Below are positions 25,529 through 30,042 of a stretch of DNA of 64,000 nucleotides, in pieces; position 1 is the first letter of the stretch, and each line of letters opens with the position of its first letter. The position numbers and the translations under genes are program-made. Source of the DNA: Octopus vulgaris (lineage: Eukaryota). The notes below the pieces were generated by a model. That model did no database searches. It saw only the letters and a program-made list of their open reading frames with translations, and had not been told where the DNA came from. The stretch lies in NCBI GenBank assembly GCA_951406725.2, contig OX597816.1:9486001-9550000 (forward strand), in the 5' to 3' direction.

Positions 25529-26932
25529 GATACCAGTATATGACAATAATCATTTATAAATAGTGCCTCTTTCAAACAGTTCTGTGAAGTGAGGTACATC
25601 AAATAAAGTACACTACTCAAATCAGAATTAAATGCTTTTGTTATTTAGAACACAAAATCTATGAGTTTGCAGCTATTTACCACATCTGCTCATCCATTTG
25701 ACTTACCACCTGTTGTATAAGCAATGACAATGATCCTCTCTGTTTTCTACAATATTATTGAAGTATTATTGTGATAAATGTAACATACCACAATTGTGCA
25801 TTTTAATTAGGTGCCAGCTCTGGCAACTGACCCTTGAAATGGATTTTGGAGTATAAAAGAGAAATAGTACAATAGGATATATTCCTTTATTTCTCTACTT
25901 TCTATCTGTATAACTACAACCGCTCTCTTCCTTGCTCTTTCTCCCTCCCTCTCTCCCTCTTTCTCTCTTTCCTGCTTTTGCCTACAATCAGTTATTCATC
26001 CAGAAGGTTATTAAGTTAGGTAGATGCTTCAATTTGATTTGTTCCTCGTTTGCATCGCATCAATCAACAATTGCTTCATAAAGAGAGCAGATATATCAAT
26101 AACCAAGATAACCGAATGAAATGTTAACCACAGGCAGAGAAATGCTAAATAAATTAATAAAGGCTCAATGCAAAGAATCCATTGCTTCAATGAAGATAAT
26201 TTACAAAATGTGATAAACAGTATGAACACAAGCAAGTCAAAAGTGCTCTCTTTTATAGGAATTCTATTGAATAAATAGTCTGCTTAGTGGAAGAGGTTAA
26301 AGATAAGTGAAAAAGGATAAAAGCTGGTACAAAATTTACATTGTTACATTAAGATTATTCTAATCTCTTTAAGTCATGATCGTAGTGAACAAAGCCATAT
26401 GGAACTAAAATTTTAGATCTAATTTCTATTCATAATTTTCAAATATTGTTTCTCTGTGACCAAGGTCGGCTCATTCATCTTTACATAATAGCAAGCAATA
26501 CTCTGCTAGAGGTCAAGGTGAGTTATAAATCTGATTAAGCTTTCACATGCACACAAACACCAGAGATAAAAATATCATGTATATTAAACAGTGAGAACAT
26601 AAATGTGTTTGAGTGTGTAATTTGTGTGAAGTGTATATAACACACACTCTCTCTTTCTTTCTTTCTTCTATTTCCTTCTTCTCTCCCTCGCCCTCTTTCT
26701 TTCTCTCAGTTCTTATGTATTGTAATTAGTCACCTCTTATGCAGATGCTATCACCTTTCAGTCCTCCTTAACCTTTTGCACACAGGCGTCATCAACATGC
26801 AACCTGTAAACCTCCCATCAGACAGGCATTATTTCTATGAAGAAAGACACAGAAATAGCCTGCAGCAAGGACATAGCAACCTAGTTTCATTCAACAGTAT
26901 TATAGGACTAAGTTATGAGACTCAGTTACTAC

Positions 26933-28852
26933 AATTTCTGGTGTTCATGCAGCATATATGATACACATTACCGTTTTTTTTTCAACCACTAGAGTAACTT
27001 AGGACTTGTGAAAGGAAAGTTTTATGTCACTCAGAATATATGAAACAACGACTAACTAAAAGCCTGGAAAGAAAATGCAGTGACATTTAGGACAAACTTG
27101 TGAAAATGATTTGGACTGGTAAAGGGTTAAAAGCATTGTATGTACTTTTTGCAATATTGTCTTATCCCTAAAAAAGAAAACTACAATATACATAGAAGCT
27201 TCCTCTAAACTAATAAAGTTATGGTGATCAAATTTCAGTTCAATCCTTAACAGATCAGTGTATTAAGAGAAAATCTAAGTAGGTAGGAATTCCAAAGAGC
27301 TACGGTTTTGAAAAGAATCTAGGGAAGAGTAAGGGATCTTGTGGAGTGAATCATAAGTTTAATACAGACTTGGTTGTAAAACTCAGTATTATAATACACT
27401 ACAATACTAAGACACAGTCACTACAGTATTATAAGAGTTAGTTACTGCATCACAACAGTTCTGTAAAACCAAGTCATTACAGTATTGTAGCAATATTGTT
27501 TTCTTCATTGCTATCTTCACTGTTTGAGAAAAGTATTAAGAATGATCTCGTTTGAGATTACAAACATCTTTGGCTAGTTTAACCTTGTTGTGCCCACTAT
27601 TTTGATTGGTTAGCATCTAAGCGCAGTCTGTCTCTCTACTTACTTCGCGCCAGTGTGTAAACTGACCAATCACGGCTTTCGGATGGGACTTTTCATTTGA
27701 GCCATCTTAACTCTTTAAATTGGCTGATATATCACGATTCACTGTCTTTTGGCTTAAGACCTTTTAAGGTCTTAGTCGGAGACCACGCATTCGTTAGGGA
27801 TGCGACCGTGTGACTTACCTATGTCACCAACCTCCACATACGGTCGTATTTCCTAGACTGGTGACCCCGACGTGATTCAAACACACAGCCATTATTATTT
27901 CCTACACTGGTGACCCGCCGTTTTCAAACATGCAGCCATTATTATTTCCTACAGTATTATAAGACACAGTTATGAGACTCAATCACTACACATATCAATG
28001 AAGCACACAAACAATATTTCTCATCCCTCACAAATCTAAAACATTCAAAATGTCAACAGATTATAGTTGATTATATTTGATGACAATTCATTTTCATGGT
28101 GATTACACATCTATAATATTGTGGTGACTCCAACCCAGCCACTGAGTTAATTCCTCTTCCAGACAATAAAATATTTCAGCAATAAACAATTTATGACTCT
28201 GTTAAAATAATGCTCATGCATCTGGAATGGTACGGATGCTACACACATAAATATTTCATATGAATTTAAAAACAAAAAATGCCATCTGACTAATAGCAAA
28301 CCTCCACTCACCAACACAGAAAACTACTAATCCATTTTTTCTGCAAGTACTACAATGGTTTCTTCTCCTCTGACCTTGCAGACTGTGAACCAACAGCTGT
28401 ATTTATTTCCCCTCATCTGTATTAAACTTATGATTCACTCCACAAGATCCCTTACTCTTCCCTAGATTCTTTTCAAAACCGTAACTCTTTGGAATTCCTA
28501 CCTACTTAGATTTTCTCTTAATACACTGATCTGTTAAGGATTGAACTGAAATTTGATCACCTTAACTTTATTAGTTTAGAGGAACCTGCTATGTATATTG
28601 TAGTTTTCTTTTTTAGGGATAAGACAATATTGCAAAAAGTACATACAATGCTTTTAACCCTTTACCTGTCCAAATCATTTTCACAAGTTTGTCCTAAATG
28701 TCCATGCATTTCCTTTTCAGGCTTTTAGTTAGTCGTTGTTTCGTATGTTCTGAGTGACATAAAAACTTTCCTTTCACAAGTCCTAAGTTACTCTAGTGGT
28801 TGAAAAATAAATGGTAATGTATATCATATATGATGCATGGACACCAGAAATT
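26933..28852. repeat. Long inverted repeat, arms 26933-27368 and 28416-28852 (~435 bp, near-identical)
   Basis: Arms are reverse complements over their whole length, with scattered substitutions and 1-bp indels. Confidence 0.95.
27486..27953 (+). mobile_element. Solo-LTR-like element (Gypsy-type) ending in tandem PBS/LTR-end units
   Basis: TGTAG...CTACA termini; 4-bp TSD GTAT (27482-27485 and 27954-27957); CCAAT boxes; tRNA-Trp PBS TGGTGACCCCGACGTGAT at 27859. Confidence 0.8.
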
Positions 28853-28989
28853 TTGTGCTGTGAATCATGTGATACAAATTACAGTCAAAGGGTAAAGTCA
28901 TCAGACTTGTAGTGGCATCACAGAATGCATACACACCTTTCCAAAGAAGGAATCCTGGTAGAAATTTCCAGTAGGTGCATTATATCTTG

Positions 28990-29216
28990 CTGTTGCTGTT
29001 GTTATGTAGCCCTGAGTCAGTCCTGATTGAGAAGATTTATACTTAGAGATAAGTCAGAGATGACCATCACATTTATTTTCAAATACAGTATATCCTAGGT
29101 CAACATTTTTCAATGTGTCCTTCCTTTTTATAAGACAGTGGTATGTTATATGAGGGGAAGCTTGGCAGCTAGTTCTAGAAAGTCAAGTAGCTATGTAGGG
29201 GCACACTCATTGGCTT
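28990..29216 (-). mobile_element. Old dispersed repeat (family E), also near 5240-5400, 17262-17468, 21660-21880 and 39650-39765
   Basis: Shared motifs gctgttatttctag..ggtcaagt..ccatgtagagg and tgaccatc among the copies. Strand assignment is tentative. Confidence 0.55.
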
Positions 29217-29813
29217 ATATTTTATGATAATGGTATGGAACAAAAGTTGTCTACTGGTGTGACAAGGTAAAATTGTGTTGAAGGAAAACAGGAATAATGA
29301 GCTAATATAGGCTTTACAGTCTTCATACACTGACTAAAAATAGAACGTGTGTGTGTAGTCATCATTGTCATCATCCTTATCATCATCATCATCATCATTA
29401 TCATCATTTTAACATTCACTTTTCCCGGCTTACATAGGTTAAACAGAATTTGTTGAGACAAATTTTCTAAGGCTGGATGTAAGACACTATTTCCCCATAG
29501 TCAGGCGTGTTTACATGGGAGGCTGGAAATGAACAATACTGTCTGTATGATGTTGTTGCTAGTTTACGACTGTTGCACAATGTCAAGAAGACAAGAAGAT
29601 ACTAGCACAGACACACTCATTTATTTCCACAACAACAGACTTCTTTTAGTTTCCCTCTACCAAAGCTATTTGCAAGGCTTTGGTCAGCCTACAGCTATAG
29701 TAGATGACATTTGCTAAAAGTGACACGCAGGGAGATTGAACACAAAATCAAATGGCCATGAAGTGAACATCTTAACCAGACAGCCATACCTGCAGCTACA
29801 GAACCATGTCTTG

Positions 29814-30042
29814 TGGCGAGCTGGCAGAAACGTTAGCACGCCGGGTGAAATGCATAGCCGTATTTCGTCTGTCGTTACATTCCGAGTTCAAATTCCGCCG
29901 AGGTCGACTTTGCCTTTCATCCTTTCGGGGTCGATAAATTAAGTACCAGTTACGCACTGGGGTCGATGTAATCGACTTAATCCCTTTGTCAGTCCTTGTT
30001 TGTCCCCTCTATGTTTAGCCCCTTGTGGGTAGTAAAGAAATA
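29814..30042 (+). mobile_element. Young full-length family B tRNA-derived SINE (Meta-domain-like central region)
   Basis: Head GGCGAGCTGGCAGAAACGTTAGC, B box GAGTTCAAATTCC, central gactttgcctttcatcctttcggggtcgataaattaagtaccag. CpGs are intact. Confidence 0.85.

What the first reader, a model, noticed from the sequence alone, without database searches (positions are those of the whole stretch)
27841..27957. Solo LTR ending in tandem [extended tRNA-Trp complement + LTR terminus] units, all inside the TSD
Seen: after the first LTR end (tatttcctaga) come c-TGGTGACCCCGACGTGATTCAAACACACAGCC (27859-27890), ATTATTATTTCCTACA, c-TGGTGACCCGCCGTTTTCAAACATGCAGCC and ATTATTATTTCCTACA, and only then the GTAT TSD. 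Established: TGGTGACCCCGACGTGATTCGAACACGCAGCC is the complement of the 3' 32 nt, including CCA, of metazoan tRNA-Trp. A normal PBS is about 18 nt because m1A58 blocks RT, and it lies outside a solo LTR. The two copies show different CpG decays (cacAc vs caTgc) of the tRNA sequence. Inference: RT read through the primer tRNA to the variable loop and an integrase-competent end was re-added, giving a repeat-spacer array that records primer copying. It could let a single LTR carry its own PBS and replicate as a minimal non-autonomous unit.
Basis: partly seen in the sequence, partly recalled or inferred. Interest (0 to 1): 0.75.

Follow-up and report, generated by a model that had tools for sequence, protein, structure and literature searches.

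The report
Retrotransposon ends rebuilt after primer overrun
This is a leftover end-piece of a jumping gene followed by two extra copies of its own primer-binding start, likely made by its copying enzyme slipping back; related insertions elsewhere in the genome carry fresh copies of the host transfer RNA and still landed cleanly, an outcome usually thought to be a dead end.

Summary
The described sequence is real: an internally deleted solo LTR (27486-27857), two 47-49-nt units, then a GTAT duplication. Unit 1 matches host tRNA-Trp at 30 of 32 nt. The units are not fresh tRNA captures. They are copies of the family's own 5' leader (42/43 and 40/41 identical to ordinary leaders), and 24 of 24 young-family extensions share CAAA where the tRNA has CGAA. 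Each unit joins the last 5 nt of the LTR at a TATTTC microhomology. The same junction occurs at 8 loci; 5 of them end the insertion before a TSD. Three unit-bearing LTRs do not form a clade, so a self-replicating mini-unit is unsupported. The partner is a Gypsy gag-RT-RNase H-integrase element. 25 LTR-type ends carry CCA-containing tRNA-Trp copies running past position 58, with misread bases at positions 58 (9/25) and 37 (7/11). Three such solo LTRs in a sister family regain an LTR terminus and sit in perfect 4-bp TSDs. Most likely RT slips back onto the U5 end and restores an integrable end. No earlier scan finding matched.

The parts
27482..27485 (+). Left target-site duplication GTAT
   Evidence: family TSDs are 4 bp
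27486..27857 (+). Solo LTR of a tRNA-Trp-primed Gypsy/TRIM family, internally deleted: nt 1-304 joined to nt 1219-1284 of a 1,286-bp copy (L005), junction near 27789/27790; ends TAGA
   Evidence: about 96-97% identical to the nearest copies over nt 1-304
27859..27876 (+). PBS 1, perfect 18-nt complement of tRNA-Trp including CCA; likely copied from the primer in the last round
   Evidence: the family's usual PBS differs at positions 10-18
27877..27901 (+). Inherited leader: 14-nt tRNA-matching extension (positions 58-45, family CAAA variant) plus ATTATTATTTC; TATTTC microhomology at 27896-27901
   Evidence: 27859-27901 is 42/43 identical to the leader of ordinary element L193
27902..27907 (+). 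Re-joined LTR terminus CTACA plus the family's 1-nt spacer C
   Evidence: same junction in L045, L186, L187
27908..27948 (+). Unit 2: family-type degenerate PBS, extension and ATTATTATTTC
   Evidence: 40/41 identical to the leader of ordinary element L123
27949..27953 (+). Terminal CTACA, the right end of the insertion (integrase-type end)
   Evidence: same end before a TSD in L189, L191 (CTACA), L190 (CAACA) and L188 (TSD with 1 mismatch)
27954..27957 (+). Right target-site duplication GTAT
   Evidence: junction held in 4 public runs

Best explanation
This is a solo LTR of a tRNA-Trp-primed Gypsy/TRIM family whose right end carries two copies of the family's own leader head, each joined to the last five LTR bases at a shared TATTTC, most likely by the plus strand slipping back onto the U5 end during reverse transcription. 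Steps: (1, inferred) an ancestor's RT overran m1A58 and the over-copied tRNA was fixed as leader, giving a 32-nt PBS-like match. (2, shown) The family now inherits this leader with a degenerate PBS and a CAAA variant. (3, inferred) In one round the plus strand copies 18 nt of primer, transfers, extends into the leader to TATTTC, slips back to the TATTTC of U5, copies CTACA-C and re-enters at the template's own PBS. This gives unit 1 tRNA-type and unit 2 family-type. (4, inferred) A second slip at TATTTC runs off the U5 end and leaves an integrase-usable end. (5, shown) The product lies in a 4-bp duplication. Whether it integrated as a one-LTR DNA or was reduced later by LTR-LTR recombination is open. 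It is a recurrent by-product, not a recording device or a replicon.
For: Units match ordinary leaders at 42/43 and 40/41; 24 of 24 extensions at 18 young-family loci read CAAA, none CGAA. Leader and LTR end share TATTTC. There are 10 leader-terminus junctions at 8 loci among 22 pattern hits; the other 12 hits have no family LTR nearby. Five loci end the insertion this way inside TSDs (window GTAT, L189 CTCC, L190 CTCT, L191 GAAG, L188 GCTC/GCAC). Three loci have the junction before a further PBS in elements with an internal region (L045 two PBS, L187 four, L186). Junction variants mirror LTR-end variants (TTCCTACA, TCCCTACA, TTCTTACA), pointing to repeated formation. Window and L045 both show the order tRNA-type then family-type, which a chromosomal tandem duplication alone would not give. 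Three unit-bearing LTRs need 3 changes on a 22-row tree and group in 0% of 200 bootstrap trees. In a sister family whose usual PBS match is 12 nt (9 of 19 hits), L248, L251 and L253 carry 39-43-nt tRNA copies, a re-added terminus and perfect TSDs; the tail is not in that family's leader, so the end was rebuilt before integration. PBS reversion to the primer sequence is discussed for ERVs (PMC7472051, passages).
Against: No cDNA intermediate was seen; steps 1, 3 and 4 are inferred from products. The window's first LTR end reads TAGA while the re-joined ends read TACA, and L253 and L249 also differ between first and re-added end. A same-template slip predicts identity, so later mutation or a second template is needed. 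No 3' LTR of a two-LTR element was seen with the tail (0 of 8 junction loci), but with few such elements this has little power. L248 shows no clear microhomology at its junction. The tree used 22 of 33 LTR pieces, only 3 of 19 inner branches are well supported, the window's deleted LTR could not be included, and LTRs here recombine. The right end could be 4 nt shorter because the host has TACA before the left TSD.
Confidence: 0.62

Rival explanations
1. LTR growth by priming at a downstream PBS: after a leader duplication, tRNA primes at the last PBS, the upstream units become part of U5 in both LTRs, and ordinary LTR-LTR recombination leaves an extended solo LTR.
For: Multi-PBS leaders exist (L045, L187). 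The single unit of solo L189 equals unit 1 of L045, including the missing T. It needs only standard steps once the duplication exists.
Against: All 3' LTRs seen in junction-bearing elements are plain (L045, L186, L187). The window would need a three-PBS parent primed first at PBS 1 and later at PBS 3. It does not explain L248, L251 and L253.
Confidence: 0.17
2. The terminal junction is a chromosomal microhomology deletion after insertion: an L045-like element lost everything between the second leader TATTTC and the TATTTC of its 3' LTR.
For: It is one step from an L045-like parent, keeps the TSD, and the window's LTR has also suffered an internal deletion.
Against: Five independent solos would have to use a 6-nt homology beside 1.2-kb LTR homology; 1 of 40 exact LTR ends is such a solo. 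It cannot create the internal duplication. For the sister-family cases it needs two rare events.
Confidence: 0.14
3. One reading: each unit is a separate read-through of the primer tRNA with an end re-added, forming a repeat-spacer record, and the LTR plus PBS replicates as a minimal unit.
For: 30/32 match to tRNA-Trp; unit number varies from 1 to 4 between loci; the same architecture with fresh tRNA copies exists in a sister family.
Against: Shared CAAA in 24 of 24 extensions, leader sequence following every unit, one tRNA only. No clade. No PPT or internal sequence before the tailed solos. Two terminal units occur only at this locus.
Confidence: 0.04

Closest known systems
Animal TRIMs and their solo LTRs with a Gypsy-type partner (ta-TRIM/lennie of taeniids, PMC4558846; passages read)
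   Same: Short non-coding internal region with PBS and PPT, TG...CA LTRs, 4-bp TSDs, many solo LTRs, partner sharing primer tRNA and ends.
   Different: Here some solos carry leader copies and a rebuilt end inside the TSD, leaders hold up to four PBS units, and the two LTRs of one copy often differ.
Lentiviral primer over-extension sequence (POS) and HIV-1 strong-stop products P2-P5 (PMC13191261, section 10 read; PMC8599865, passages)
   Same: Genome complementarity to the primer continues past 18 nt; read-through products stop at later modified bases, including position 37.
   Different: POS reaches only about position 55 and is conserved with an intact PBS; here the match reaches position 45 while PBS positions 10-18 are degenerate. 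Products stopping at 37 are described as non-functional and over-extended DNA as unable to integrate, whereas L248, L251 and L253 are integrated with perfect TSDs.
Ty1/Ty3 dead-end plus-strand strong-stop DNA (PMC5371799, passages)
   Same: A first plus strand that runs into the tRNA and is not used for normal transfer; repeated priming at the PPT could supply the other strand.
   Different: In Ty1/Ty3 the primer sequence is not inherited; here tRNA-type PBS copies appear in elements (L045, L193, window), and overrun strands appear as insertions.
Degenerate PBS with reversion in mouse ETn/MusD/IAP (PMC7472051, passages)
   Same: The common PBS is mismatched to the primer and some copies revert to a perfect one.
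   Different: The passages read mention no duplicated leader units or rebuilt ends.

Membership tests
Solo LTR of an LTR retrotransposon | TG...CA ends with a short TSD and no internal region | tested here: met
   TGTAG...CTACA, GTAT on both sides; first end mutated to TAGA; no empty site found
Solo LTR of an LTR retrotransposon | Homologous to the LTRs of two-LTR elements | tested here: met
   L045, L195, L055 have this LTR at both ends of an internal region
Solo LTR of an LTR retrotransposon | No PBS or leader inside the TSD | tested here: not met
   Two PBS-leader units lie inside the TSD; 37 of 40 exact family LTR ends are plain, so this is a variant
Solo LTR of an LTR retrotransposon | Formed by LTR-LTR recombination after insertion | not testable with these tools
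   Needs orthologous or allelic full-length copies
TRIM (family to which the LTR belongs) | Two LTRs, short non-coding interior with PBS and PPT, TSD | tested here: met
   L045 (463 bp, GTAT TSD), L195 (TAAT), L055; interiors about 160-230 bp. The window copy itself lacks the interior and PPT
Gypsy (Ty3/Metaviridae) partner | gag, then RT-RNase H-integrase order, same primer tRNA, 4-bp TSD | tested here: met
   L240, L241, L243: DUF7041, RVT_1, RT_RNaseH, Integrase_H2C2, rve in that order; Trp PBS with the same ACGCAGCC extension; TSDs CATC, CTAA, ATAT. Frames are broken in all three; clade within Gypsy not tested
Primer over-extension sequence (POS) | Genomic complement of tRNA bases just beyond the 18-nt PBS | tested here: met
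   14 nt to position 45, one fixed mismatch
Primer over-extension sequence (POS) | Accepts over-extended plus strands in second-strand transfer | tested here: inconclusive
   0 of 24 young-family extensions restored to CGAA argues against frequent use; L272 in the sister family shows one overrun strand switching into its leader
Acquisition array (repeat-spacer record) | Spacers differ and are newly captured | tested here: not met
   All units are the same inherited leader
Self-replicating minimal non-autonomous unit | Copies form a clade and carry a PPT and PBS in usable order | tested here: not met
   Not a clade; no PPT or interior before the tailed solos

The most novel reading that the evidence does not exclude
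Gypsy reverse transcriptase has an end-rescue route. Plus strands that overrun U5, into the primer tRNA as far as the anticodon loop or into the leader, jump back onto the U5 end, rebuild the att site and are integrated normally. The genome therefore stores single-molecule in-vivo records of primer-tRNA modification (m1A58, m1G37 misreads and stops), and the same route generates extended and tandem PBS leaders over evolutionary time.
Probability: 0.5. Interest if true: 0.68.

Novelty: new variant of a known kind. Interest (0 to 1): 0.5.

Why it matters
Retroviral work holds that a plus strand copied past m1A58 cannot finish and integrate unless a short over-extension sequence accepts it (PMC8599865, PMC13191261). 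Here overrun strands reaching the anticodon loop sit in perfect target-site duplications with a rebuilt end, and an overrun has apparently become a heritable leader. If right, genome assemblies can be mined for in-vivo RT stop and misread spectra on native primer tRNAs, for any primer and lineage, and there is a concrete route by which PBS regions lengthen and duplicate. The window locus itself is a secondary product: a duplicated leader, not a new recording system.

Tried and rejected
Rfam scan of 26000-30000: 6 weak hits, all below gathering score. No tRNA gene in the window. No credible ORF near the locus. Empty site: the right flank is single-copy in G000, and 4 runs laid as contigs show no joint across the insertion; contigs show presence, not absence. 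No listed holder is on record as RNA, which says nothing on expression. Test for tailed 3' LTRs: tblastn of three partner proteins on 30 loci (27, 3) found no same-strand integrase upstream of a tail; only 1.5 kb each side was held, so this is weak. Considered that the partner's leader extends to tRNA position 38 (L055, L241 read ATTCTGATAT), but sister copies read ATTCGTAT, which equally resembles the LTR end; left undecided. Considered that the 32-bp doubled LTR end of the L004/L240 subfamily is an old captured PBS; it fits a plain duplication of the LTR end as well. Earlier scan findings: 8 shown for this genome, none on this topic; 0 by words. Literature searches listed no paper, by title or abstract start, on TSD-bounded LTR + tRNA tail + rebuilt end or on genomic misread signatures from LTR primers. 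The library lacks most subscription papers and repeat databases. Lauermann and Boeke 1997 was not held, and the older Ty1 and retroviral circle-junction papers were not seen. No supplements were read.

Full report
Observation. The sequence is as described: GTAT, an LTR from 27486 to 27857, C, a 32-nt unit head (27859-27890), 16 nt ending CTACA, C, a 30-nt head (27908-27937), the same 16 nt, GTAT. The genome (G000, 2.8 Gb) has tRNA-Trp(CCA) genes: 21 of 30 loci fetched with the unit-1 pattern are called by ARAGORN. Unit 1 matches the mature tRNA from position 76 to 45 at 30 of 32 nt. Contigs of 4 of 4 public runs laid join unit 2 to the right flank, and one joins the left flank to the LTR. The host reads TACA before the left GTAT, so the right end is ambiguous by 4 nt locally; the family's TSDs are 4 bp and the same CTACA end recurs at other loci.

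The family. The window element has many relatives (934 candidates, 40 scored). Full LTRs are about 1,280 bp (L005, L006, L020). The window copy joins nt 1-304 to nt 1219-1284. Two-LTR copies with a 160-230-bp non-coding interior are TRIMs (L045, L192, L195, L055). Related 6-kb elements (L240, L241, L243) have 4-bp TSDs and, in broken frames, DUF7041 (gag position), RVT_1, RT_RNaseH, Integrase_H2C2 and rve in Gypsy order. Of 40 exact LTR-end matches, 37 are plain ends and 3 are followed by a PBS (35 classified, the other 5): one ordinary TRIM, one two-unit TRIM and one tailed solo.

The units are the leader. Ordinary elements begin, after the LTR and one C, with the Trp PBS, the 14-nt extension and ATTATTATTTC, then continue into the interior (L061, L062, L077, L078, L080). 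Window unit 1 plus 11 nt is 42/43 identical to the leader of L193, and unit 2 plus 11 nt is 40/41 identical to that of L123. At 18 young-family loci all 24 extensions read CAAA where the tRNA has CGAA, while most keep the neighbouring CpG, so the change is inherited (the pattern required leader-like bases after the extension and so left out L134, see below). The common PBS differs from the tRNA at positions 10-18; a minority, including window unit 1, have a perfect or near-perfect 18-mer followed by the family extension, as expected when the plus strand copies the primer up to m1A58 (PMC13191261, section 10; reversion discussed in PMC7472051, passages). The gag-pol elements carry the same extension in degenerate form. 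Older relatives (L143, L151, L154, L258) have a near-perfect 29-32-nt match followed by a homologous interior, so the extension most likely began as one old read-through (inference).

The junction. Leader and LTR end share TATTTC. A 2-mismatch search for leader-plus-terminus gave 22 hits (5 for the control pattern): 10 junctions at 8 family loci and 12 hits with no family LTR within 1.5 kb. Five loci end there inside a TSD: the window, L189 (CTCC), L190 (CTCT), L191 (GAAG) and L188 (GCTC/GCAC). Three have the junction before a further PBS in an element with an interior and a plain 3' LTR: L045, L186 and L187, the last with four PBS units. Only the window has two terminal units. On a tree of 22 LTR 3' parts (11 of 33 dropped for short overlap; the window's LTR was not among them) the three tailed LTRs need three changes and never group in 200 bootstrap trees, though support is low overall. 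The junction thus forms repeatedly, and no tailed lineage is spreading.

Fresh read-through elsewhere. A search for CCA-containing tRNA-Trp complement running past position 58 gave 27 hits, 0 for the control. Two are the family leader (window, L153) and were dropped. In the other 25 the match runs 25-50 nt, mostly 29-43; upstream 400-nt stretches fall into 14 groups, and downstream stretches are unique except L143/L151/L154 (an inherited leader) and L132/L138. The base opposite A58, left free in the pattern, is not T in 9 of 25 (4 C, 4 A, 1 G). The base opposite G37 is not C in 7 of the 11 that reach it (6 A, 1 G). Background mismatch is 21 of 855, biased low by the pattern; against an assumed 10% the p-values are 5e-4 and 2e-5. 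Several position-37 cases lie within 1-2 nt of the tail's end and could be junction bases; L141 and L150 continue matching for 3 and 2 nt. RTs misread and stop at m1A58 and m1G37 (PMC5066629, passages); that tRNA-Trp carries m1G37 is recalled, as that paper's text has no Trp entry. L134 is an LTR of the window's wider family with a 37-nt tRNA-type tail and no rebuilt end or TSD.

Rebuilt ends. Of 19 hits for an 18-nt PBS followed within 30 nt by TACA, four outside the window's family are solo LTRs with tail, re-added terminus and a perfect 4-bp TSD: L248 (43 nt, A opposite G37, CGTT), L251 (41 nt, CACT), L253 (39 nt, AACA) and L249 (18-20 nt, GATT). L152 is an imperfect further case. For the family of the first three, 9 of 19 hits show the usual leader with only a 12-nt PBS match, so these tails come from the primer, and the end must have been rebuilt before integration unless two rare events are assumed. 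L251 and L253 have 3-4-nt microhomology at the join; L248 has none evident. L272 shows an overrun strand (A opposite A58) switching into its leader at a shared CGAACA, the kind of event that would found an extended leader.

Mechanism. Shown: inherited leader units, microhomology joins, TSD-bounded products, recurrence, fresh primer copies with modification-type misreads. Inferred: a plus strand that has passed the U5 end, on the tRNA or after transfer on the leader, stalls or is loosely paired (the family PBS mismatches the primer copy), slips back onto the U5 end, and either runs off (rebuilt end) or re-enters at the PBS (extra unit). One round gives the order tRNA-type then family-type seen in the window and L045. 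Against it: first and re-added ends differ by a base in the window, L253 and L249; no intermediate and no tailed 3' LTR was seen. Rivals for the terminal join are downstream-PBS priming with later solo formation and post-insertion deletion.

Comparison and novelty. TRIMs, solo LTRs, degenerate PBSs, primer over-extension and dead-end plus strands are all known. PMC8599865 (passages) states that over-extended plus strands cannot complete synthesis and integrate; PMC13191261 (section 10) lists the position-37 product as non-functional. Nine searches listed nothing on integrated tails with rebuilt ends, judged from listings, within a library that lacks much older retroviral work. Interest 0.5.

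Noticed in passing
window 26933-27368 and 28416-28852: The LTR sits inside a roughly 1.9-kb fold-back structure with about 450-bp arms 95-96% complementary; the inner right part is single-copy in G000. MITE-like or a local inverted duplication.
   Followed up: partly
window 26894-26933, 27386-27489, 27951-27990: Short degenerate host repeats around the target site contain CTACAGTATTATA, resembling the element's end plus TSD; L045 has the same GTAT TSD.
   Followed up: no
L036, L055, L186, L187, L192, L195: The two LTRs of one TRIM copy often differ in length or subtype, suggesting frequent strand transfer between different RNAs or cDNAs.
   Followed up: partly
L044:1504-1770, L056, L210/L255, L230, L132: LTR end plus PBS joined to an inverted LTR piece; L255 is a roughly 100-bp insertion starting with an inverted U5 end inside a CTAT duplication. 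Likely fold-back or autointegration products.
   Followed up: partly
L142:1500-1600, L257:1440-1540: Other tRNA-Trp-primed families also have three tandem PBS units, each preceded by a TTACA-type end.
   Followed up: no
L143, L151, L154, L258 leaders: About 25 nt after the extended PBS lies an LTR-end-like stretch followed by a second truncated Trp PBS, possibly an ancient unit fixed in the TRIM interior.
   Followed up: partly
L155:1500-1600: LTR end plus 29-nt tRNA complement, then a switch to the sense strand of most of tRNA-Trp and back into the inverted LTR: a hairpin copy of the primer.
   Followed up: no
G000:C6:58.38-58.46 Mb (L086-L099): Cluster of at least 14 tRNA-Trp(CCA) genes; L110 is a 5'-truncated tRNA-Trp copy embedded in (TA)n.
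   Followed up: no
L004, L015, L240-L243 LTR ends: A subfamily has a doubled LTR end (about 32-bp period, two TACA ends) in both LTRs, showing that U5 can grow by end duplication.
   Followed up: partly
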